64,000 nt of DNA, taken from a virus (Duplodnaviria > Heunggongvirae > Uroviricota > Caudoviricetes). Made by a program: the position numbers and the translations under genes. Shown in pieces: positions 1,399-14,834 of the stretch; position 1 is the stretch's first letter, and the number at the start of each line of letters is the position of its first letter. The stretch spans positions 27,299-91,298 of IMG/VR virus record IMGVR_UViG_2913167280_000003, one strand, 5' to 3'. The notes under the pieces are model-generated. The model was not told the origin of the DNA and did not search any database. It worked only from the letters and a program-made list of their open reading frames with translations.

Positions 1399-4300
1399 TC
1401 AACTCTCGCGTAGTCATTCATCAACGGATCATCAATTGACAGTGGTACCGTGCGCATAACGCCCGGCTGAGGCGTGCTGACCTTTACGACAGTTCCCTGG
1501 CCTTTCGCCGAGTCTTTGGTGTGCTCTTCAATCCTGGCAAGCAATGAGGTCATCTGCGCAAACAGCCGCTTCGTTTCACCATCAAGTGAAACGGTATTAT
1601 CAGCCAACTGCATTGTCGGCTTGGCACCGGAACCGCCTAGGTCACTAATAACCTGCCCGTCTATCTGCATACGACCAGTTGGTTGCTGCAAATCGTTGGC
1701 GACAGTCGTCACTTGCGACGTGGTGGCTGGTTCAGGCGCATTACTTTTCCGCATCCCCGGCGCGTTGCGGACTTTATCGAACAGCCCATCTATCCCCATT
1801 TGTGCGCCGAGCTGGTCAAAGTAACTTGAGTTGTTAGCAACCGGACGCGCCTCTTCAACTGGCATAGGTGTATCAACATACACATTGCCAGCTGCCGTTG
1901 CGGTTCCCTTTCCTCGTGCACGTTCTTCGAGGGTTCCCTGGACGACTTCTCGACGCATCCCCCGGCCATTCATAAATTTGTTGACCAGATCGTTAACGCC
2001 AACAGCATTGCCGATTTTGTCTACCAGACCGTCTTTCTCAAACGGGCTATCACCAGGGGTAAACGCCAGGCCAGTAGACTGATCGATAACGGCGTTATCA
2101 GGCAGTGGTCCCATCACTCCAGATTGCGCCCCACCCTGTGCTCCTGCTCCAGGTGTATAGATTTCACCACCTAAATAGCGAGCACGATGAGTATTGACCT
2201 TGATCGCATACTCGCGGTTTTCCTTCGATAAGTCACCGGTGCCTTTTTTCCACTTATTAATAGTGCCAAACCCTGCGTTATATGCAGTGATGGCCTCGTT
2301 TAAGTCTCCATTGGCTTGCTTCAGATACTTGCTCATGAGAAGAGCCGCAGCTTCTGCCGATTTCACAGGATCAAACGATTCACCTTTAGCTAAGCCAGTC
2401 TCTTCACGAGCAATGCCCGTGAACTGAAACATCCCTAGAGCACCAGTTTGGGATTTTGCGTACGGATTACCACCAGATTCAGTTGCAGCAATCGCGTAAA
2501 GAGTGCCTTCAGGAAGACCATATTTATTCTCTAGTTCAGCAAAATACGGAGCTAACTTATCGAGATTTGCCTTACCTTCAGCGCCAAGGCTTCCGACTTT
2601 TACATCTAAGTTGCCATTATTGTAGGTATCAGCAGCTTTCTGAATGTCATTCCTAGTGCCGGTGGTATTACGCGACGATGATGACGAGCTATTTTGTCCA
2701 ATAGCTGTATCAATTTTCCGCACCGCGCTATTGCCCGTTTCTACGGCATTTGCATTGATAATCTGATTGGCAGTTTCTTTAACTGTTTTATTGCTATCTT
2801 TCGCCGTGTCCAGTGCCGCATTTATCACGCGGGTAGCAATATTAGTCTGTTTGGCATCGGATTCAGTTTTAGAATCAGATGTCTCCTGGTGGCTATTAAC
2901 CGGAGCTTTTAACTCTGGAGTGATTTCTTTTGCATTAGCCTCGCCGATCGGATTGGGTATTTTTGATACAATCATTGCCGCAGGGGTATTTTTAACGGCA
3001 TCAACCGCTGCATCTAATGCTTTACCGGGTAAATTTTTAACCCCATCCCAAATATTACCAGCCGCCTCTTTAATGTGTTTCCCTGGGTTCTTAATGAAGT
3101 CAATTGCACTATCAATTGCATCACTGAAAACCTGTTTCAGGTTATCGACAGTAAAGAAGTCTTTTATGGCATCCAGCTTTTCAAGCAACTTATTAGATGT
3201 ATCGCTAAACCATGCTGAAACAGCATCACCAATCTTTGCTGTGTAATCATCGAACTTGGTAGAAATGGTGTCGCCAATGTTAGAAATATATGTTTCTAAG
3301 TTGGTAATCCCACTATCAATGGCCTGGGCAATACTTTCCGTCGAAAATGATTGCAACATATTGCCGATATCCTCAAATCCAAGTGATTTGAGAACATCAC
3401 CAATAGCACTGCTAATACCAGATACCAGTCCCCCCATATCGAGAACATTGGCTAACGTATAAGCGGCTTTTTGCTGGAATGACGGATCTTGTCCTGATTT
3501 AAGCCCAAACGCTCGACGTTGCGCTTCTGTATCATTCCAACCGGTTACCGCATCATAAATACCTCCAGCCACTGTGCCGACTAGGGGAATTGCGCGTAAC
3601 GCCCCTTTACCAACTGCCTTTAACCCCAGTTTACCAGCTGCCCGGGCAGCCAAATCTCCGCCTTCATGGGCGAGAGTCTTCTTGCCCCCACCGCGTAGCA
3701 TTCCTACGAGTTTCTTTGCCCCCAGAGCGCCAAAAGCGAGTGCTCCCGCTTTTTTCAGCATGCCACGCCCCATTAATAACGACGCGACGCCTCCGGCCCC
3801 CTTCCCTAACAGGCTAAATAATTTGGACAGCAAGCCGCCCTTCTTTTTCCCGGTGTTTTTGCCTATCTGTTCAAGGGCGCGGAGAATCTTGTCATTGCCC
3901 TCTTTAATTTCGCTGGTCTGATCCTGAAGTTCCTGAACCGTCCGTTTTTGGGTGTTAACCTGAACGACATCGGCACTACTTTGCGATTTACGCCTAAAAA
4001 AACCTTTTCTACGGCTGTTATCGTCATTGCCACGAATCACATCAGCAATAGACTTTCTGGCACCATTAAGCGATCCGCCAACTTCTTTTGATATCCCGCC
4101 AAGCTCTTTTCCCGCTGCCCACAATGGGTCAGCAACGGCATAACCTAAAGCATCGACGGCACGAGTCTCTGAAGGGTTACCTATACCTTCAGCTACTTTT
4201 GACAGTTTTTTTAATAAACCTGATTCAGCATTTAGACGCTCATCATCCTCTTTGCGCCTGGCCTTTTCAGCGCGTTCAGCACGGGCATCTTCCGATGCGG

Positions 4301-4868: not shown

Positions 4869-5750
4869 TCAGCGTCCTGAATCGGTATACCCCCATACAA
4901 AACCAGGTTGGACACTAAGGTCTGATAGCTTTTCAATCCCCACCTGTGGAATGAAGTCGGTAGCCCGAAAGGGCACCCACAGACGGGTATACGCACCCTC
5001 TGTGGACTCCTTTGTATCCTGGTTTGGGCATTTGTGCGGCGGGAGACGAAGTCGCATTTCGCCTTTATCGATGTAGCACGGTAAACCATGTTCGAGCTTT
5101 TCATGAGCCAGCCGGATGTGTGCCGCCAGCTTCATAAATTCAGTATCAATGGCCATCCGTTTGATCGTTTCATAACGACGCTCAGCCTGCTCTTCACGAG
5201 TACCGCTAACATCGTTATAAAGTTCACACTGATAAGCGAATTCCCAAAAACGCAAATCAACGATCGCTTCTTTGAATTCCGCGTCGTCTTCAGGTGGCAA
5301 TGCTGCACGGCGCATCCCCAGCATTTCCATTGCCCAACCATCAAGCGGCACGATACGCCATTGATAAGGCACGCCCTCTACAGACACCTCAATATCGTCA
5401 ATGAACGGTTCCACTTCCAGGACCTGGATATCTTCAGCCAGAGCATTCATATCGCAATCGTAATAATGCTCTTTACCGCAATGTTTACAGGTGTAGGTAA
5501 ATGTCTCGATCGGTGTTTCGCGGGAGCCAGTAAATATCCACCATAACGCGGTAATCCGGTCCTGTGCCGTCCATTTCAGTGGATCATGTTTCGCAGGTTC
5601 AGCCAGCAAGGCTTTTAAATACGCCGTTGTTTGCTGTTCTTGTTCCTCCGGTGTTATCGAGTTGAAACGCATCGCATCAGCAATATTTGGCTGACGGAAC
5701 TGGATTAATTCAGTTGGCCGCGATGGTAGAGGGAAAAGGGGTAAAAGCAT
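4869..5750 (-). CDS. hypothetical virion morphogenesis protein (293 aa)
   Basis: Long ORF in the minus-strand structural block between sit and tail genes; contains CxxC pair (CKHCGKEHYYDC); no family recognised. Confidence 0.5.
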   Translation of the reverse strand: MLLPLFPLPSRPTELIQFRQPNIADAMRFNSITPEEQEQQTTAYLKALLAEPAKHDPLKWTAQDRITALWWIFTGSRETPIETFTYTCKHCGKEHYYDCDMNALAEDIQVLEVEPFIDDIEVSVEGVPYQWRIVPLDGWAMEMLGMRRAALPPEDDAEFKEAIVDLRFWEFAYQCELYNDVSGTREEQAERRYETIKRMAIDTEFMKLAAHIRLAHEKLEHGLPCYIDKGEMRLRLPPHKCPNQDTKESTEGAYTRLWVPFRATDFIPQVGIEKLSDLSVQPGFVWGYTDSGR

Positions 5751-5764
5751 CCTTGCTCCTTAAT

Positions 5765-6376
5765 TTAAAGCGAAAAACTAAAGCCCAGAAGGGAAGCCAA
5801 AGAACTTGAGGATTGGTTAAACGTGCTGTGCAATGCGAAGGTCATTGGGAATGACTTAAATTCCGTAACCTGATCCCGTGCATAGGTGACATCGCCGGTA
5901 GTGATCGGGAATACCGTCATCTCATTTTCCAGTTTTGTTAAACCGGAAGACAGCAACCGATAAATACGCACATTGAGCAAATATTTAGACGGTATGTTCC
6001 CGGTACCGTCCGGATTGATCACCCGACTTTTTGCCGTTTTAAACCAGTCCAAAACGAGGCCATCAACGGTATCCCTGACCATCATTGTTATCTGCCCAGG
6101 CGAACGCTCCGTTGGCTGAAGAATATTCCCTCCGCCGATTTTAATCGTTTCATATTCGATGCTGTAATCGTGGTAGGTAATGTCTTTAGCAAAGAAGTCT
6201 GCCCCCTCCAGTCCATCAACTTCGACAGAGAACTGCCATCCTTGCGCGAACAGCATTTTGTTCATGATGATTGACGTCAGCTTACCGACTTCCCGCTCAC
6301 CAACGCCGGAGCCAAATAATGTCGTCGTAAATGCCGAAGATACATAAGACTTTACTGATGCAACATTAAGTCCCAT
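5765..6376 (-). CDS. hypothetical tail structural protein (203 aa)
   Basis: ORF tightly packed (10-bp gap to next gene) in structural operon; no motif recognised. Confidence 0.5.
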   Translation of the reverse strand: MGLNVASVKSYVSSAFTTTLFGSGVGEREVGKLTSIIMNKMLFAQGWQFSVEVDGLEGADFFAKDITYHDYSIEYETIKIGGGNILQPTERSPGQITMMVRDTVDGLVLDWFKTAKSRVINPDGTGNIPSKYLLNVRIYRLLSSGLTKLENEMTVFPITTGDVTYARDQVTEFKSFPMTFALHSTFNQSSSSLASLLGFSFSL

Positions 6377-6386
6377 ATCAGCCCCC

Positions 6387-7004
<618 letters not shown>

Positions 7005-7106
7005 TCCATTGAGTGGGAATATTGCCGTCTGGGAGTAATATGGTATCATTAAGTTAGAGTAGGTAGTGTAGATGGAATGAGGAGTATCATATGGTTATCA
7101 CACAAT

Positions 7107-7136
7107 CAGGTTGCTTTGAGTCAGGTTGTTTTGAGT
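7107..7136. repeat. tandem 15-bp direct repeat (CAGGTTGCTTTGAGT x2, one mismatch)
   Basis: Seen directly; sits just upstream of a terminator hairpin in the divergent intergenic region. Confidence 0.7.
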
Positions 7137-7147
7137 AAAACAATAAA

Positions 7148-7172
7148 ACGCCCTTTAATGGGCGTATTTTTT
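7148..7172 (+). terminator. intrinsic terminator-like hairpin (ACGCCC-TTTAAT-GGGCGT followed by T-run)
   Basis: 6-bp GC-rich stem followed by ATTTTTT; 10 bp upstream of the 7183 ATG. Confidence 0.55.
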
Positions 7173-7182
7173 AGGATTTAAA

Positions 7183-8076
7183 ATGCATTCTTTACAGAAA
7201 TACATAAAACATAAATATACTCACTTAACTTTTTTTCTCTCATTACTTTTTTTCATGATATTTGAATCGCGAGAAGATCTTATCAAGAAAATATTATCTT
7301 TTTCTCTCAATGAAGTTTTACCATTCTTAATGTTTGCGTTCTTCTCCGTATTTATCAGCATAACGATAAAGGAAAAGATAGCAAAGAAATACCCAGAAAC
7401 AAACGATGGGATTACCATTATAGCTTTAATCTTTGGTGTAACACTATATAGTGTGTTTATCTTATATTATTTATATGGTGATGTATACCAATCCACAATT
7501 GCTTTACTTATAAGTTCTGTGCTACTTGGTTCTGGGTGGTGGGTTCAGGCTACTGTGAGTAAAGTAGCCGCAAGAAAATCACACACCTTAAATACACTAA
7601 TGAATCAAAGAAACAGTGAATTATTTCACAAGAAAGTTTCATCGGTAGCGAATACGTTCGGGCTTAGAAAAACCATAAATGAAATTATTGCCAAACAAAG
7701 ACTTGTCCCAAATGATAAAGATTTAAAAAATAAAAAGGTCCATGATGAATACATATCAGCAGGTAATGATATGTTCTTCGTTCTTAATTATTATGAATTT
7801 ATCTGTTCAGGAATAATAAATGGGGACTTTGATGAAGATTCAATGAGAGAATGTCTTGGACAAATTGTTCCAGGTCTCGAAGTTAGAGCATTTCATTTTA
7901 TAAGAATTGCAAGAGAAATTTCAGGGAGTAGCTGCTTCTGTAATTTTGTCGCTGTTTCAGACAAATGGTCTACTAATGGAGGCTCTCTTATTCTCAGACA
8001 CGAGAAAGGAGAACCTGTGATTAATAACCTGACCCATTGCTTTGAAGAAACAGACTGTTTTAACATAACTTCTTAA
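7183..8076 (+). CDS. AT-rich accessory membrane protein, about 4 predicted TM helices plus ~170-aa C-terminal domain (297 aa)
   Basis: Hydrophobic segments LTFFLSLLFFMIF, LPFLMFAFFSVFISITI, ITIIALIFGVTLYSVFILYYLYG, IALLISSVLLGSGWW; AT-rich composition unlike flanking backbone; hairpins on both sides. Confidence 0.6.
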   Translation: MHSLQKYIKHKYTHLTFFLSLLFFMIFESREDLIKKILSFSLNEVLPFLMFAFFSVFISITIKEKIAKKYPETNDGITIIALIFGVTLYSVFILYYLYGDVYQSTIALLISSVLLGSGWWVQATVSKVAARKSHTLNTLMNQRNSELFHKKVSSVANTFGLRKTINEIIAKQRLVPNDKDLKNKKVHDEYISAGNDMFFVLNYYEFICSGIINGDFDEDSMRECLGQIVPGLEVRAFHFIRIAREISGSSCFCNFVAVSDKWSTNGGSLILRHEKGEPVINNLTHCFEETDCFNITS

Positions 8077-8082
8077 TATTTT

Positions 8083-8109
8083 GTAACCCATAATCGCTTT
8101 ATGGGTTAC
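8083..8109 (+). terminator. hairpin downstream of the 297-aa gene (GTAACCCA...TGGGTTAC)
   Basis: 8-bp perfect stem with 11-nt loop; no strong T-run, so terminator function uncertain. Confidence 0.35.
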
Positions 8110-8130
8110 GTTAAATTTGCAATAAAAAAA

Positions 8131-8311
8131 TCAATCGCCGGGCTTTAAGCATCCATCGTTTTTGGCTTGTTGATATAACTTACTTAGCCCAGAAAGAGGG
8201 AATGTGGCAATTTTTTCATTATCAACATAAGCATCAATCACATTAGCATTTGAATCTGCTGCATCCTGCCAAAAGGCATACCACCAAGAATCTCCAACCA
8301 TTGACCCAAGA
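8131..8311 (-). pseudogene. remnant of a paralog of the 154-aa gene (C-terminal ~57 codons only)
   Basis: Minus-strand translation ...DSWWYAFWQDAADSNANVIDAYVDNEKIATFPLSGLSKLYQQAKNDGCLKPGD* aligns with C-terminus of ORF 9673-10137 (...REWYSFWKSASATKEKNMDVYIG...SSIYKEAKNDGCLK); no intact N-terminus. Confidence 0.45.
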
Positions 8312-8400
8312 GGGATTTGACGTCTTCGAGTAATTGTCGTTGTGTCATTGACACCTCGTAGAATCTGGTGTGTTAACCGATTCTACGAGTTATCATTTGT
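8312..8400. repeat. ~88-bp direct repeat copy 2, including duplicated start codon and 12 codons ([12 protein letters not shown]) of the 188-aa gene
   Basis: Near-identical to 6917-7004; the duplicated start at 8346 is followed by a stop after about 36 codons. Confidence 0.85.
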
Positions 8401-8501
8401 TACCGGTCAGTCTACACATTTCAGATGCTGCGTTAAAAAACTCAAGAGCTTCAAGTAGCATATCGTCATCAACACCCAGCCCGAAGATGCTGAGATAAAA
8501 T

Positions 8502-9686
8502 TCAAGCTTTAAGAGGCTTTGTGTATGTTCGTGTAATCCATCCAGTAATAAACTCGTCCCCTGATTTAACCTGCACGAAAAGCCATTGGCGATCTTTTTT
8601 ATCTAAAATAGCAACAATTGTATTTTTACCAATGCACTCTATCACTTCACTATTTAAAGAAGGACTGACATGTAATCTTACATTATCACCTGTTATAGCT
8701 CTAAAATTATTAAGATCCTCCCACTGAATATCTTTATTTTCTTGTGTTAGCTTTTGCTTAGATATTGGCTTATCCTCATTTAGGGATAGAATATATGATT
8801 CCATCCCGTAAATTTGCGATAATGTTTTTTCTTTCGCATAATCAGTTATAGCGCCAAGAAATACTTGACACAAAATCCACAGAAGAAAAGTCTGAACAGG
8901 AGAAGGAAGCGCCTTAAATGAATCAATAAACGTCGAACTAGATTTATTTAATCCTTTGTCTTGAGCATCACTTTCAGTGTGTGATGTTTCAATGGCACCT
9001 TCGATATAAGCCTGTGCAATTGTTGAAAGACCTTGCTCCATTATTTGATGAAATGAAGCCTTTTGTGCTTGAGTATATTGATTTAATAATTCTTTTATTT
9101 CATTGTTTAAATCTATCTTGTGAGTTACATTTTTCCGCAATTCATTAAGCATTGCTTGCATGTTATTCAAGCCAGCTTGCTTATTAAGCATCTCGAACTG
9201 GTTTCGTAACGGCATAGCTATTTCGGCCTGTTTCCTTAGCATTTGAATGTGTTTATTTGCATCATGAGTGGAAAAAGCCTGAGCCTGTTTCTGTAAAATA
9301 TCAATATGTTTACGAAACTCGTTGCCTATTCCTGCCAGTTTCGGCATATTCTCAAACTGTTTTCGAATAGAATCACTAACTATGGATTGCAAATTAAATC
9401 TTGCTATTTGTTCTTGAGCTAGCTGTCCTATTCTTAACTGTTTTTGCAAGTTTGCCATATGTTCTTTATACGATGGAATGATTGCGTTTTTTTGCAGTTC
9501 CGCCAACTGTCTAACCAAATTATTAGAAGCATAATCTGATTTTAATAAATCACTTACCGATTTATATTCGGGCATTTTGATTTTATTTAAATCATCACGC
9601 CAAGTAATATTTGAATCTTTATTATAAAGATCGCTTACTGAGCCAAGAGCAAGTTTTTTAATGTCCTTCACTTTATTCACCGTCAT
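8502..9686 (-). CDS. accessory protein with helical repeat region and C-terminal SH3-like domain (394 aa)
   Basis: Repeated helical motifs (LQKQAQAF, MLRKQAEIA, MLNKQAGL) and C-terminal segment NVRLHVSPSLNSEVIECIGKNTIVAILDKKDRQWLFVQVKSGDEFITGWITRTY resembling bacterial SH3 domains; AT-rich. Confidence 0.6.
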   Translation of the reverse strand: MTVNKVKDIKKLALGSVSDLYNKDSNITWRDDLNKIKMPEYKSVSDLLKSDYASNNLVRQLAELQKNAIIPSYKEHMANLQKQLRIGQLAQEQIARFNLQSIVSDSIRKQFENMPKLAGIGNEFRKHIDILQKQAQAFSTHDANKHIQMLRKQAEIAMPLRNQFEMLNKQAGLNNMQAMLNELRKNVTHKIDLNNEIKELLNQYTQAQKASFHQIMEQGLSTIAQAYIEGAIETSHTESDAQDKGLNKSSSTFIDSFKALPSPVQTFLLWILCQVFLGAITDYAKEKTLSQIYGMESYILSLNEDKPISKQKLTQENKDIQWEDLNNFRAITGDNVRLHVSPSLNSEVIECIGKNTIVAILDKKDRQWLFVQVKSGDEFITGWITRTYTKPLKA

Positions 9687-10137
9687 CTTGCTTTAAACAC
9701 CCATCATTTTTAGCTTCCTTGTAAATACTTGAAATGCCATCAAGAGAGAATGATGTAATTCGACGCGATCCGATATATACATCCATGTTTTTTTCTTTTG
9801 TGGCTGACGCTGACTTCCAAAAAGAATACCATTCCCTACGATTAGGAGAAGTGTTTTGCGTGCCAATATTAAAACTATCCGAACCAACAATTAAAGTAAT
9901 TACATCTGCTTTACGAGAAATTGTGTCGCGTGTAGAAAAATCGGCATTCTCTTTTCCTCCGCTTACATACAAATTTCTTCCAGCGATATGGTCTTCAGAA
10001 CCATCCCTTGCACCAGCATCACAAGAAAAATTAATTGTATAGCCATCCTCATGACATGCTCCGGCAAAGCGCCTCATTTGACGCTCCTGTTGACCATCTT
10101 GTCTTAACTGGAATTTAAATGCTTGTAGTCGTTTCAT
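9673..10137 (-). CDS. accessory protein of unknown function (154 aa), first gene of two-gene operon
   Basis: ORF overlapping downstream gene by 14 bp; a degenerate partial copy exists at 8131-8311. Confidence 0.55.
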   Translation of the reverse strand: MKRLQAFKFQLRQDGQQERQMRRFAGACHEDGYTINFSCDAGARDGSEDHIAGRNLYVSGGKENADFSTRDTISRKADVITLIVGSDSFNIGTQNTSPNRREWYSFWKSASATKEKNMDVYIGSRRITSFSLDGISSIYKEAKNDGCLKQDDGE

Positions 10138-10299
10138 CCCACTATTTTAAACAAAAACAGTTAGGTGGAGAACCGCGCCTTATATCCCCACCCTGAAGGA
10201 CGGGGTTTTACGGCGCACCGGATAACTCATTTAGGGTACATATTTTCGCCTTTAAAAAAAAGAGGTTATTAGATCCATTTGTGTATTTATTAAACAGAT

Positions 10300-10316
10300 A
10301 ATGCTCTAATAAATTT
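10300..10316 (+). promoter_or_regulatory. C1 operator-like site (AATGCTCTAATAAATTT), Op51 position upstream of immI
   Basis: 16/17 match to the P1 C1 operator consensus ATTGCTCTAATAAATTT; upstream of c4/icd/ant. Confidence 0.75.
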
Positions 10317-10489
10317 GTATTTTTAAGTCGCGAATGCTATCTTTTCGCATCATATTGACCTTTTAATCGTTCAGGCTTATAGTTCCGCCGTCGTAGCAAA
10401 TTCTGCGACCAGGTTTGACAGCCTGAAAACTTACGCGGACAACCGCACATTTCCGATATTGCGGTATTTTTGTGTCCGTAAAACCACGT

Positions 10490-10575
10490 TACGCCCGAAT
10501 TATGGTGGGGCGTGATGGGGAGGCTTCGGCCTGCTGGTTTCGTAAGTGCCAGTCTGTCAACCCTGTCACGTCCTG
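10490..10575 (+). ncRNA. c4: c4-like antisense RNA (immI repressor RNA); exact ends not determined
   Basis: Contains a' CGTAAGT (10541-10547) and b' CTGTCAA (10554-10560), complementary to b1/a1 (TTGACAG 10415-10421, ACTTACG 10429-10435) and b2/a2 (10584-10590, 10612-10618); a2 overlaps the icd RBS. Confidence 0.55.
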
Positions 10576-10629
10576 CCACCTGTTTGACAGCGGGTCGCAG
10601 GTTGTTTATCAACTTACGAGGCCGTAACT

Positions 10630-10851
10630 ATGGTTAATGCCAATCCTTGCGCACGCCAAGAATTCATCTGGCGTTTCTATTCCTGTAAAAAACACCACTA
10701 TCACTTCGTTATCGCAGCAACAGAAGACGAAGCACGCTCTCAATTGCCTGATGGCCCCTGCATTTTTACTGCCCGTTTTTCGACTAACTCGCGCAATTCA
10801 CTTAGTTACTGGAACCTCCCCTTCTCTGCCGACGTTCAGGGGGTTTTATGA
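10630..10851 (+). CDS. icd: Icd-like cell-division interference protein (73 aa)
   Basis: 73-aa ORF immediately downstream of c4 target a2/b2, stop overlapping ant start (ATGA); arrangement as in P1 immI. Confidence 0.65.
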   Translation: MVNANPCARQEFIWRFYSCKKHHYHFVIAATEDEARSQLPDGPCIFTARFSTNSRNSLSYWNLPFSADVQGVL

Positions 10852-11885
10852 AAAAACCTCTCGTCACCCGGAATGAAATAGCCGAAGCGGTCGCCCTGCA
10901 TACTGCCTGTATGCCGACACGGGAGATCCCCGGCGCAATTGCCAACTACTTCATGATAACCAGGCGTTTTTATACCCGAACAGATAAGGCTGTGATCAAC
11001 AGGCTACTGATAGCCGAGATCAGGGATTATTTGATTGAACAAGGACGTCTACGTTACGCAACAGTGGCAGCAGAAATGAGAAAGGAGGCACATAGAATGA
11101 CCGGTAATAATTTGAATGTTGAAAAACCAGCACCTGTTACGTCAGCTACGCCAGCACCAGCCGTGAATATTATCCCCAACACCGGAGACACAATCGACAG
11201 CCTGACACTGTTAAAGATGGTCAATGAAGCGCGTAAGTTATGTGGGGAACCAGAGGTTCGGAACAACAAATTCATCGAAAAAATACTCGATGAGCTTGAT
11301 GGTGAGCACTACACAAAAAGTGTAGTGGAAAAAATGAACAAAACATCAATGCTTGTCATAACCATGACCTACAAACAAGCCCTGCGAGTCGCCGCGCGCG
11401 AATCAAAAGCTGTCCGCCGTTCGCTGATCGACAAACTGGAAGAATTGCAGCAGGCAAACTCCCCTACCCCATCGATCCCCCAAACATTACCAGAAGCCCT
11501 ACGCCTGGCTGCCGAGTTGGCAGAACAGAAAATGCAGCTGGAACAACAGCTGGTGGCCGCAGCCCCTAAAGTCGATTTTGCCGACCGGGTATCAGTGGCT
11601 AATGGAATCCTGATCGGGAACTTTGCAAAGGTCGTTGGACTGAAGCAAAACGCCCTTTTCTCATGGTTGCGCCAGAACGGCATTCTCATGGCTTTTGGTG
11701 CGCGCAAAAACGTACCGCGCCAACAGTACATCAACGCCGGGTATTTCACGGTGAAAGAAGTGGTGCTGGATGATGAAAATGGCTACCAGATACGGCTGAC
11801 GCCCCAATTAACGGGTAAAGGCCAGCAGTGGTTAACTCGTAAGCTACTTGCTACTGGTTTGTTAAAACCAGTAGCAATAGGTTAA
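10848..11885 (+). CDS. ant: antirepressor Ant (345 aa)
   Basis: Position after icd; C-terminal domain (PEALRLAAELAEQKMQLEQQLV...GKGQQWL) is the KilA-C/ANT-type domain shared with the KilA ORF at 12049. Confidence 0.7.
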   Translation: MKKPLVTRNEIAEAVALHTACMPTREIPGAIANYFMITRRFYTRTDKAVINRLLIAEIRDYLIEQGRLRYATVAAEMRKEAHRMTGNNLNVEKPAPVTSATPAPAVNIIPNTGDTIDSLTLLKMVNEARKLCGEPEVRNNKFIEKILDELDGEHYTKSVVEKMNKTSMLVITMTYKQALRVAARESKAVRRSLIDKLEELQQANSPTPSIPQTLPEALRLAAELAEQKMQLEQQLVAAAPKVDFADRVSVANGILIGNFAKVVGLKQNALFSWLRQNGILMAFGARKNVPRQQYINAGYFTVKEVVLDDENGYQIRLTPQLTGKGQQWLTRKLLATGLLKPVAIG

Positions 11886-12048: not shown

Positions 12049-12849
12049 ATGCAACAAACATTCAATGCGGATATGAATATATCAAACCTTCATCAAAATG
12101 TCGATCCTTCAACCACTCTACCTGTTATTTGTGGTGTTGAAATTACGACCGACCGCGCTGGCCGTTACAACCTTAATGCTCTACACAGAGCGAGCGGACT
12201 CGGTGCCCATAAAGCGCCAGCTCAATGGCTAAGAACGCTGTCAGCCAAACAGCTCATTGAAGAGCTTGAAAAAGAAACTATGCAGAATTGCATAGTTTCG
12301 TTCGAAGGCCGTGGCGGCGGCACTTTTGCCCATGAATTGCTCGCTGTGGAGTACGCAGGCTGGATTTCTCCCGCGTTTCGGCTGAAGGTAAACCAGACAT
12401 TTATCGACTATCGAGCCGGAAGATTACAACCAGCTATTCCGCAGAGTCTCCCTGAAGCACTCCGTTTGGCAGCCGACCTGGCAGAGCAAAAGCAACGCCT
12501 GGAGCAAAAAATGCTTATGGATGCCCCTAAAGTCGAATTCGCCGAACGCGTTGCTACCGCCAGCGGGGTTCTAATAGGCAACTATGCCAAAGTGCTCGGC
12601 CTGGGCCAAAACTATCTCTTCACCTGGTTGCGTGATAACGGAATTCTGATCGCAACCGGTGAACGCAGGAACGTCCCCAAACAAGAATACATCTCTCGTG
12701 GGTACTTCACCCTCAAAGAAACCGTGATCGATACAAGCAACGGAAGCAGGATTTCTTTCACGACTCGTATAACCGGCAAAGGTCAGCAGTGGCTGATGAA
12801 GCGATTGCTTGATGCTGGTGTGCTGGTACCTGTCGCGGCAACGCACTAA
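12049..12849 (+). CDS. kilA: KilA (KilA-N plus KilA-C domains, 266 aa)
   Basis: 266 aa as P1 KilA; KilA-N-like N-terminus (VICGVEITTDRAGRYNLNALHRASG) and ANT/KilA-C C-terminus; followed by repL. Confidence 0.8.
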   Translation: MQQTFNADMNISNLHQNVDPSTTLPVICGVEITTDRAGRYNLNALHRASGLGAHKAPAQWLRTLSAKQLIEELEKETMQNCIVSFEGRGGGTFAHELLAVEYAGWISPAFRLKVNQTFIDYRAGRLQPAIPQSLPEALRLAADLAEQKQRLEQKMLMDAPKVEFAERVATASGVLIGNYAKVLGLGQNYLFTWLRDNGILIATGERRNVPKQEYISRGYFTLKETVIDTSNGSRISFTTRITGKGQQWLMKRLLDAGVLVPVAATH

Positions 12850-14019: not shown

Positions 14020-14201
14020 TACAATCGCTGCGGGTGCTTGAGGCTATCTGCTTCAGGCACTACCCGACAAGCAGATAGAAGAAAGCCCCAGATAACATTA
14101 CGCGTCCTGCAAGACGCTTAACATTAATCTGAGGCCATATCTATGCTTAGCATACGTAGATTAGCCCTCTCCCCTTTTTAGGAGCAAGGAATTTTTTACT
14201 G

Positions 14202-14834
14202 CTATGCCGCCTTTCCAATTATGGATTCAGCGACCAGAACAACCCCATGCTTACTTCTATCTGGGTGTTCACTCCATATCTCGGATTCAGGAATACTTAC
14301 CCCGTCATAGCAAACACGTTCGCCGTCAAACGGGTAATACTGAGCGGCATCGGTGTCGAGGATAAACACTTTTAGCTCGGAAGAGCGACGGGCGATGTGT
14401 TGCCAAAGAGCTTTTCCACCTTCGTATTGCTCATTATCACTGAGCAAAACAACACCAGCTTTTGAGGCTACGGTTTCGTAAACAAAAGTAGCTAAACCGA
14501 CATCCCGGACGGTTCCATCAACCACGATACCTTCAATCTGGGCAACATCGCTATCCTCCCAGAACTTCCTTACAAGTACGCCTTCAAGCTGCGGGCGACG
14601 TTGAAGTTCAAGAGTAGCGACAACCTTATGGCGCATATCACCATCGATAACAGAAGGCGCAGCCTCTATTACAGCTGCAAATGGGGTTTTGGAATCCCAT
14701 ATAACCTGGTAAAGCACACCCTGGATGGTAACTCCGTCCAGGATCGAAAATCGACGAGCGACAGTACCCGGGGAGTACGACATTGGAATCACAGCCATTT
14801 TAGAGTCCCCCTTTAACAGTACAGGCACAAACAT
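14202..14834 (-). CDS. hypothetical protein (210 aa; possibly starts at internal Met MAVIPMSY)
   Basis: ORF in track; no motif recognised. Confidence 0.45.
   Translation of the reverse strand: MFVPVLLKGDSKMAVIPMSYSPGTVARRFSILDGVTIQGVLYQVIWDSKTPFAAVIEAAPSVIDGDMRHKVVATLELQRRPQLEGVLVRKFWEDSDVAQIEGIVVDGTVRDVGLATFVYETVASKAGVVLLSDNEQYEGGKALWQHIARRSSELKVFILDTDAAQYYPFDGERVCYDGVSIPESEIWSEHPDRSKHGVVLVAESIIGKAA

What the first reader, a model, noticed from the sequence alone, without database searches (positions are those of the whole stretch)
8131..8311. Degenerate partial copy of the 154-aa gene fused to the duplicated operon start
The remnant C-terminus (...FWQDAADSNANVIDAYVDNEKIATFPLSGLSKLYQQAKNDGCLKPGD) parallels the C-terminus of ORF 9673-10137. 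This points to repeated exchange of 154-family cassettes at the hotspot.
Basis: seen in the sequence. Interest (0 to 1): 0.4.

Follow-up and report, generated by a model that had tools for sequence, protein, structure and literature searches.

The report
Gene remnant scar in P1 hotspot
The flagged stretch is a dead-end leftover (the last third) of a small secreted-protein gene, left behind when two alternative gene cassettes were stacked by recombination in the known variable "sim" region of a P1-like phage-plasmid; it is a real but ordinary recombination scar.

Summary
Window 8131-8311 (- strand) encodes 56-59 residues that align to the C-terminus of ORF 9673-10137 at 44% identity over 50 aa (E=1e-17; z=27 against 5000 shuffles).

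It is not a decayed copy of that neighbour. It is the clean 3' 181 nt of a different, divergent family member: a 158-aa gene (WP_001057312.1), 96-97% identical at DNA level, frame intact. That gene is full length in 53 of 57 PLSDB plasmids carrying it.

The window is a P1-like phage-plasmid. The locus lies between pmgC and c4/icd/ant, where P1 carries simABC, a published variable region.

The remnant is joined at 8311|8312 to an 89-93-nt second copy of the pmgC start plus the late promoter LPsit. The same junction precedes three different downstream cassettes in other plasmids. A probable intermediate (NZ_CP077484.1) has the full gene and the same duplicate.

The family is Pfam PF27224 YfjT: signal peptide, two invariant cysteines, function unknown.

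The remnant lacks the signal peptide and residues 1-~100. It is out of frame with pmgC'. It is most likely non-functional.

The "intact" 154-aa gene is itself a chimera: an IS609 tnpB N-terminus replaces its signal peptide.

Low interest.

The parts
6387..6953 (-). pmgC, first gene of the P1 late 'sit' operon (essential in P1); native copy
   Evidence: 97% DNA identity to P1/vB_EcoM-673R5 pmgC region. pmgC scored essential in the P1 CRISPRi screen (PMC10695390).
6913..7005 (-). Repeat copy 1: first ~13 codons of pmgC, its 5' leader and late promoter LPsit. By transfer from the P1 annotation, the -10 TAGAAT lies at 6985-6990 and the -22 box AAATGACAA at 6995-7003. A 17-nt inverted repeat lies at 6954-6970 / 6984-7000.
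   Evidence: the repeat finder D1 and I10; P1 annotation of LPsit; sequence comparison.
7183..8076 (+). DUF4760 membrane protein gene (297 aa), the usual partner of the full-length 158-aa gene
   Evidence: Pfam PF15956 E=8.7e-14; phrog_21275; adjacent to the full-length 158-aa gene in L004 and L013.
8082..8110 (+). Terminator-like hairpin after the DUF4760 gene, between the convergent DUF4760 gene and the remnant
   Evidence: Consensus scan only.
8131..8311 (-). THE FINDING: the 3' 181 nt (last 59 codons plus stop) of a YfjT-family gene of the WP_001057312.1 type. The mechanical ORF runs 8131-8301 (56 aa) from an internal Met.
   Evidence: Colinear with L004 2889-4897 at 97.2%; homology stops at gene nt 297. 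There are 8/181 differences, frame intact. 44% aa identity to ORF 9673-10137.
8308..8400 (-). Repeat copy 2: pmgC' (ATG 8348-8346, 12 codons kept) plus a duplicated LPsit (-10 at 8380-8385, -22 box AAATGATAA at 8390-8398). The junction lies at 8311|8312, with AAG shared by both parents at 8308-8310.
   Evidence: 95% to copy 1; junction alignments; three private substitutions in the window lineage; the out-of-frame 36-codon pmgC' ORF.
8502..9686 (-). SH3-domain protein gene (394 aa) of the downstream cassette
   Evidence: Pfam SH3_3 E=1.2e-5, just below the gathering score; phrog_7086 for the L003 homologue; 89.6% DNA identity to L003.
9673..10052 (-). YfjT-family part of the '154-aa' ORF. It corresponds to residues 43-168 of the full-length 168-aa gene; the signal peptide is missing.
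   Evidence: Alignments. Homology to L003 stops at window 10052.
10053..10137 (-). First 28 codons of an IS609-type tnpB/insQ, supplying the start codon of the chimeric 154-aa ORF
   Evidence: Pfam HTH_OrfB_IS605 residues 1-28, E=0.0016, below the gathering score. DNA match to insQ. Intact InsQ sits at the same site in L012.
10160..10225 (.). IS200/IS605 (IS609) end fragment
   Evidence: 93.9-97.0% matches beside tnpA of IS609 in thousands of E. coli chromosomes.
10377..10583 (+). Right conserved flank of the hotspot: c4-a1b1 targets (10377-10429) and C4 antisense RNA (10498-10583) of the immI operon
   Evidence: Rfam RF03163 and RF01695, above gathering scores.

Best explanation
The stretch is a non-functional recombination scar. 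It is the last third of a YfjT-family periplasmic-protein gene, the 158-aa allele that normally sits next to a DUF4760 gene. It was left behind when two alternative cassettes of the P1 sim hotspot (between pmgC and c4) were stacked in tandem.

Step 1 (inferred from an extant intermediate). An illegitimate crossover joined a DUF4760/158-aa/116-aa type plasmid to codon ~13 of pmgC in a plasmid with another cassette. This duplicated about 90 nt: the pmgC start plus late promoter LPsit.

Step 2 (inferred). A deletion of about 420 nt removed the 116-aa gene scrap and the 5' 296 nt of the 158-aa gene. This produced the 8311|8312 junction.

Step 3 (the outcome is shown; the mechanism is inferred). 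The module [DUF4760 - remnant - pmgC'/LPsit] now has conserved P1 sequence on both sides. Homologous recombination has since placed it upstream of at least three different cassettes, including the SH3 + '154-aa' cassette of this window.

The remnant has no signal peptide. It lacks the whole N-terminal beta-sheet region and one of the two invariant cysteines. It has no convincing ribosome-binding site and is out of frame with pmgC'. It is therefore expected to make no working protein.
For: Identity of the element: P1-like phage-plasmid, with pmgC-tub-pmgB-sit on one side and c4/icd/ant on the other. The sim region is a published variable region (PMC9603915).

Parent gene: window 6301-8311 is colinear with NZ_CP023961.1 at 97.2% and stops 181 nt from the end of its 158-aa gene. 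In PLSDB, 53 of 57 carriers have the whole gene and 4 have only the 181 nt.

Junction: the identical junction occurs in NZ_CP100532.1, NZ_CP069679.1, CP098993.1, NZ_OY757122.1 and NZ_JBXRYE010000003.1. It precedes DUF5384 + TraT-like, a second YfjT-type gene + 215-aa gene, or SH3 + 154-aa cassettes.

Intermediate: NZ_CP077484.1 and six more plasmids carry the full 158-aa gene, 106 nt of the 116-aa gene and the same pmgC'/LPsit copy starting at the same base. L007 equals it minus about 420 nt.

Gain or loss of the module: Logan contigs L008-L011 are 98-99% identical to the window in the flanks. They lack exactly one repeat unit plus the intervening DNA.

Non-function: the alignment and the AF2 model (pLDDT 88.4) show a signal peptide, seven strands at residues 27-97, and invariant C51 and C153. 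The remnant starts at about residue 100. The frame relation is shown.

Redundant copy 2 carries 3 private substitutions in 93 nt, whereas native copies are conserved.
Against: The remnant's reading frame is still open, and most differences from the full-length allele are synonymous (5 synonymous, 2 non-synonymous). On its own this would fit purifying selection. However, five of the differences are shared by all remnant copies, so they probably predate the truncation.

PGAP annotates it as a 56-aa hypothetical protein (WP_023154396.1).

The order of events is inferred from extant arrangements, not observed. The 11-nt imperfect repeat at the proposed deletion endpoints matches at only 7/11 positions.

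That two different left junctions share exactly the same pmgC end point could also mean a preferred break site.

No expression data exist.
Confidence: 0.85

Rival explanations
1. The 56-aa ORF is a functional small protein, or a C-terminal module kept by selection. For example, it might bind the same partner as full-length YfjT-family proteins, or act as a decoy.
For: The ORF is open in all copies seen. Substitutions are mostly synonymous relative to the full-length allele. It is annotated as a CDS by PGAP. The family's most conserved stretch, WY.FW...AKNDGCLK, lies in this part.
Against: It has no signal peptide, although every full-length member has one. It lacks residues 1-~100, including all seven N-terminal strands and the invariant C51. 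The sequence upstream of the ATG (CCCTCTTGGGTCAATG) has no clear Shine-Dalgarno motif. The window copy carries an R-to-P change near the C-terminus. It is rare: 4 of about 490 P1-like plasmids in PLSDB.
Confidence: 0.07
2. One reading: a local partial duplication of the neighbouring 154-aa gene that has since degenerated to 44% identity.
For: Same family and same C-terminal motif, about 1.4 kb apart on the same strand.
Against: The remnant is 96-97% identical in DNA to the 3' end of a different gene present full length in 53 plasmids. A global DNA alignment to the 3' end of the 154-aa gene shows only scattered matches. The remnant is colinear with that other gene's own neighbour, DUF4760.
Confidence: 0.02
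3. Assembly artefact: two co-resident P1-like plasmids with different cassettes were merged by the assembler at the shared pmgC/LPsit sequence.
For: The arrangement is rare and the join involves a sequence common to all P1-like plasmids.
Against: The left side of the junction lies inside a gene with no homology to pmgC, which repeat collapse cannot create. The same junction is present in several independently closed plasmids, and in NCBI and Logan assemblies from different samples.
Confidence: 0.02
4. The duplicated pmgC'/LPsit segment is the selected feature and the remnant is a passenger. A second late promoter upstream of the DUF4760 module would give late antisense transcription across DUF4760, or extra drive into the pmgC operon.
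For: Copy 2 retains the -10 TAGAAT and a near-intact -22 box. No - strand terminator was scored between 8380 and the terminator-like site at 7165-7148.
Against: Copy 2 in the window lineage has a substitution in the -22 box and two more nearby, as expected for relaxed constraint. The promoter scan is consensus-only. No transcript data exist.
Confidence: 0.1

Closest known systems
simABC superimmunity region of phage P1 ('variable region 4' of P1-like phage-plasmids)
   Same: Same genomic position between pmgC/LPsit and the c4-icd-ant immI operon. The genes there are non-essential (PMC10695390). The region is reported as highly variable among P1-like phage-plasmids (PMC9603915). At least two of the alternative gene products carry annotated or apparent signal peptides (SimC sequence; P7 upf50.0/upf50.5 sig_peptide features).
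   Different: None of the window's genes is homologous to SimC (hhalign probability 0.9%). The window carries two stacked alternative cassettes and a duplicated promoter segment instead of simABC.
YfjT/YkfB family (Pfam PF27224; phrog_3429), prophage proteins of E. coli K-12 CP4-57 and CP4-6
   Same: The precomputed PF27224 domain is found on the parent 158-aa and 168-aa proteins. phrog_3429 matches at E about 5e-70. NCBI uses the name 'YfjT/YkfB family phage-associated protein' at this locus.
Gene remnants and mosaic joints at phage 'moron'/accessory hotspots
   Same: A truncated gene sits at a junction between modules that are each found intact elsewhere. The modules are flanked by conserved core genes that provide homology for exchange.
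   Different: Here a short piece of an essential late operon's start and promoter was duplicated in the process and now serves as an internal homology block. I found no description of this for P1-like elements in the papers searched.

Membership tests
YfjT family (PF27224 / phrog_3429) | Significant sequence match to family members or profile | tested here: met
   Remnant vs the 154-aa ORF: E=1e-17. The remnant is 96-97% identical in DNA to the 3' end of a gene whose product hits phrog_3429 at 5.7e-70 and carries PF27224. The remnant alone gives no Pfam or NCBIfam hit in the local libraries.
YfjT family (PF27224 / phrog_3429) | N-terminal signal peptide (secreted/periplasmic protein) | tested here: not met
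   All 24 aligned full-length members start with a hydrophobic leader. The remnant begins at about residue 100. The 154-aa ORF has a tnpB-derived N-terminus instead. No dedicated signal-peptide predictor was available; the call rests on the alignment.
YfjT family (PF27224 / phrog_3429) | Complete domain with both invariant cysteines (C51, C153) and invariant W26/G33/W109 | tested here: not met
   The remnant keeps only W109 and C153. In the AF2 model, strands 27-97 are absent from the remnant.
P1 sim (superimmunity) genes | Homology to SimA/SimB/SimC | tested here: not met
   SimC vs the family profile: hhalign probability 0.9%. The window has no DNA match to P1 simABC; P1 homology is limited to 6301-7185, 8308-8401 and 10222-10900.
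P1 sim (superimmunity) genes | Position between pmgC/LPsit and c4 | tested here: met
P1 sim (superimmunity) genes | Confers exclusion of superinfecting P1 | not testable with these tools
   Needs a plating or transduction assay.
Pseudogene / recombination scar | Full-length parent exists elsewhere, the fragment ends at a junction with unrelated DNA, and translation signals are lost | tested here: met
   Parent present in 53 plasmids; junction at 8311|8312; no own RBS and out of frame with pmgC'.

The most novel reading that the evidence does not exclude
The ~90-nt pmgC'/LPsit duplicate is more than a by-product. It may work as a portable homology anchor that lets P1-like phage-plasmids stack and swap envelope-protein cassettes without touching the essential late operon. 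The small YfjT family has at least three divergent alleles concentrated at this one site. It may be a diversifying set of periplasmic superinfection-exclusion factors that replace SimC. The remnant would then be a footprint of an ongoing arms race at this locus.
Probability: 0.2. Interest if true: 0.45.

Novelty: new member of a known kind. Interest (0 to 1): 0.22.

Why it matters
The finding matters mainly for annotation and as a record of history. The 56-aa 'hypothetical protein' (WP_023154396.1) that PGAP calls in these plasmids is a gene fragment. The neighbouring 154-aa ORF is an IS609-tnpB::YfjT chimera without a signal peptide, so this plasmid probably has no working YfjT-family gene.

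The locus gives a clear, datable series of how accessory cassettes in the P1 sim hotspot are combined: single cassette, then stacked cassettes with a duplicated promoter, then an internal deletion, then cassette swapping.

It also points to the uncharacterised YfjT/YkfB family as a candidate envelope-acting function at the P1 superimmunity site. That idea can be tested by simple exclusion assays.

Tried and rejected
1. The remnant is not the 3' end of simC. Translation of P1 and 673R5 simC shows no similarity and hhalign is negative.

2. PADLOC, NCBIfam and the local Pfam copy gave nothing for the family. Only PHROGs and the precomputed PF27224 label name it.

3. A PDB sequence search with the family profile found nothing below E=0.07.

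5. I first read L015 as the same remnant in front of a fourth cassette. BLAST showed it is the window's arrangement with 22 gap positions breaking the gene calls, so that claim was dropped.

6. No record in the INPHARED phage collection holds the junction.

7. The literature search for YfjT/YkfB found only gene lists.

Full report
**1. What is at the coordinates**

It aligns without gaps to residues 103-152 of ORF 9673-10137. Identity is 22/50, positives 70%, E=1e-17. The Smith-Waterman score is 143, against 24.7 +/- 4.4 (max 53) for 5000 shuffles of the remnant, z=27. The similarity is far beyond chance.

Immediately 5' of the remnant on its coding strand, 8308-8400 repeats 6913-7005 at 95% identity.

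**2. Where we are**

The window is a P1-like phage-plasmid (Punavirus). Window 6301-7185 and 10222-10900 match P1 and relatives at 92-97%.

- ORFs 4869-5750, 5765-6376 and 6387-6953 are pmgB, tub and pmgC.
- Rfam finds the c4-a1b1 targets at 10377-10429 and C4 RNA at 10498-10583.
- The ORF at 10848-11885 corresponds to ant.

Between pmgC and c4, P1 carries simC-simB-simA. This is one of eight published highly variable regions of P1-like phage-plasmids (PMC9603915). In P1 the sim genes are non-essential, while pmgC is essential (PMC10695390).

The 93-nt repeat holds the first ~13 codons of pmgC, its leader and the annotated late promoter LPsit. The -10 is TAGAAT. The -22 box is AAATGACTA in P1, AAATGACAA in copy 1 and AAATGATAA in copy 2.

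**3. What the remnant is a remnant of**

Window 6301-8311 is colinear at 97.2% with NZ_CP023961.1 (L004). There the DUF4760 gene is followed, convergently, by a complete 158-aa gene (WP_001057312.1) and a 116-aa gene. Homology stops 181 nt before the end of the 158-aa gene.

The remnant differs from that allele at 8 of 181 positions: 5 synonymous, 2 non-synonymous and TAA to TGA. There is no frameshift or internal stop.

A global DNA alignment of the remnant with the 3' end of the neighbouring 154-aa gene shows only scattered matches. The remnant is therefore a truncated piece of a different, divergent family member. It is not a decayed copy of the neighbour.

In PLSDB, 57 plasmids carry this gene. 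53 have it whole and 4 have only the 181 nt.

**4. The junction and its history**

The parental sequences are CCCAAGA|TTGC (158-aa gene) and GTGAAGC|GGGATTTG (pmgC). The window reads CCCAAGA|GGGATTTG. The join is at 8311|8312, next to a shared AAG.

The identical junction occurs in NZ_CP100532.1, NZ_CP069679.1, CP098993.1, NZ_OY757122.1 and NZ_JBXRYE010000003.1. It lies in front of different cassettes:

- DUF5384 + TraT-like lipoprotein (L006, L014);
- a second YfjT-type gene, WP_001220697.1, + a 215-aa gene (L007);
- SH3 + '154-aa' (this window). The window is 100% identical over 10,171 nt to GCA_004212315.1 contig RHJM01000047.1. The same arrangement is present in three further contigs.

A probable intermediate exists. 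NZ_CP077484.1 (L013) and six more complete plasmids carry DUF4760, the full 158-aa gene and the last 106 nt of the 116-aa gene. These are followed by the same pmgC'/LPsit copy, starting at the same base, and then the WP_001220697.1 cassette. L007 equals L013 minus about 420 nt. The two breakpoints are preceded by an imperfect 11-nt repeat, TTGACCCAAGA / TTGATTCAAAC, matching at 7/11 positions.

Contigs L008-L011 are 98-99% identical to the window in both flanks. They lack exactly one repeat unit plus the DNA between the copies.

Only about 7 of 490 PLSDB plasmids with this segment have it twice.

The most economical reading has three steps:

- an illegitimate crossover stacked two cassettes and duplicated the pmgC start and LPsit;
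- an internal deletion then truncated the 158-aa gene;
- the resulting module, bounded by conserved P1 sequence, has since been moved or its downstream neighbour swapped by homologous recombination.

The extant arrangements are shown. The order of events and the mechanisms are inferred.

CP057476.1 (L005) shows an independent way of combining the same cassettes. It has a near-full 158-aa gene with two frameshifting indels, joined directly to the 3' flank of the SH3 gene.

**5. The protein family**

The 158-aa and 168-aa proteins hit phrog_3429 at about 5e-70 and carry the precomputed Pfam domain PF27224 'YfjT'. A recent PGAP annotation of this locus uses the name 'YfjT/YkfB family phage-associated protein'.

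The family is small: 35 clusters at 50% identity among 1.84 billion proteins.

An alignment of 24 members shows an N-terminal hydrophobic leader and invariant W26, G33, C51, W109 and C153. An AlphaFold2 model of the 158-aa parent is confident (pLDDT 88.4). It has seven strands at residues 27-97, a helix at 103-118, two strands and a short helix.

A role at the cell envelope, possibly superinfection exclusion like SimC, is an inference. It rests on the leader peptide, the conserved cysteine pair and the genomic position. It was not tested.

**6. Is the remnant functional?**

Probably not, for four reasons.

- It starts at about residue 100. It therefore lacks the leader, all N-terminal strands and C51.
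- The sequence before its ATG has no clear Shine-Dalgarno motif.
- The pmgC' ATG at 8348, which has pmgC's own translation signals, reads 36 codons in another frame and stops.
- In the window lineage, repeat copy 2 has three private substitutions: P3Q in pmgC', one base before the ATG, and one in the -22 box. All native copies are conserved, as expected if copy 2 is redundant.

The intact frame and the mostly synonymous differences are explained by divergence before truncation, because five differences are shared by all remnant copies. With so few sites this cannot be proved.

**7. A correction to the reference gene**

The '154-aa intact gene' is itself damaged. Homology to the full 168-aa gene stops at window 10052. 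Residues 1-28 match the IS605 OrfB N-terminal HTH (Pfam E=0.0016, below threshold). Window 10053-10136 matches insQ/tnpB of IS609, and 10160-10225 matches an IS609 end. NZ_CP183090.1 has an intact InsQ at exactly this site.

The deletion also removed the 'simA-domain' 163-aa gene that follows in complete cassettes. The same chimera is called as a 134-aa protein in other assemblies. This plasmid therefore appears to have no YfjT-family gene with a signal peptide.

**8. Verdict**

This is a real feature, correctly spotted, and correctly taken as evidence of cassette exchange. It is an ordinary recombination scar in a known variable region. It is not a degenerate copy of the neighbour.

Novelty is low: it is a new example of a known kind. 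Two modest points of interest remain. One is the duplicated late-promoter segment acting as an internal homology block. The other is the clustering of divergent YfjT-family alleles at the P1 superimmunity site.

Noticed in passing
window 9673-10225: The '154-aa' ORF is an IS609 tnpB(28 aa)::YfjT-family chimera lacking the signal peptide, followed by an IS609 end fragment. The deletion also removed the 163-aa 'simA-domain' gene present in complete cassettes.
   Followed up: yes
window 8502-9686: The SH3-domain gene is 394 aa here and 367 aa in otherwise 98-99% identical contigs L008-L011. Its 8308-9560 part is only 92.4% identical to them, which suggests a separate recombination tract. An internal 57-nt-spaced repeat lies at 9226-9312.
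   Followed up: partly
window 14032-14206: A sok antitoxin RNA (hok/sok-type) matches Rfam RF01794 at 87 bits.
   Followed up: no
window 7148-7165: A bidirectional terminator-like hairpin lies between LPsit copy 1 and the DUF4760 gene. It could stop read-through from the duplicated late promoter.
   Followed up: no
window 7183-8076: The DUF4760 protein (297 aa) has a hydrophobic-looking N-terminal half. It always travels with the 158-aa YfjT-type gene or its remnant. Its function is unknown and it has no PADLOC hit.
   Followed up: partly
L003 3962-4453; L007 4946-5593: The 'simA domain' proteins (163 and 215 aa) that accompany YfjT-type genes give weak sub-threshold matches to Pfam PTPlike_phytase (E about 1e-5, bits just below the cut-off).
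   Followed up: no
L005 (CP057476.1) 3187-3700: An independent composite: a near-full-length 158-aa gene with two frameshifting indels, joined directly to the 3' flank of an SH3 cassette without a pmgC'/LPsit duplicate.
   Followed up: partly
window 10848-11885 and 12049-12849: Two antirepressor-type paralogues sit in tandem (Ant and KilA-like), sharing a C-terminal ANT-like region by eye. This is typical of P1 immI but was not examined.
   Followed up: no
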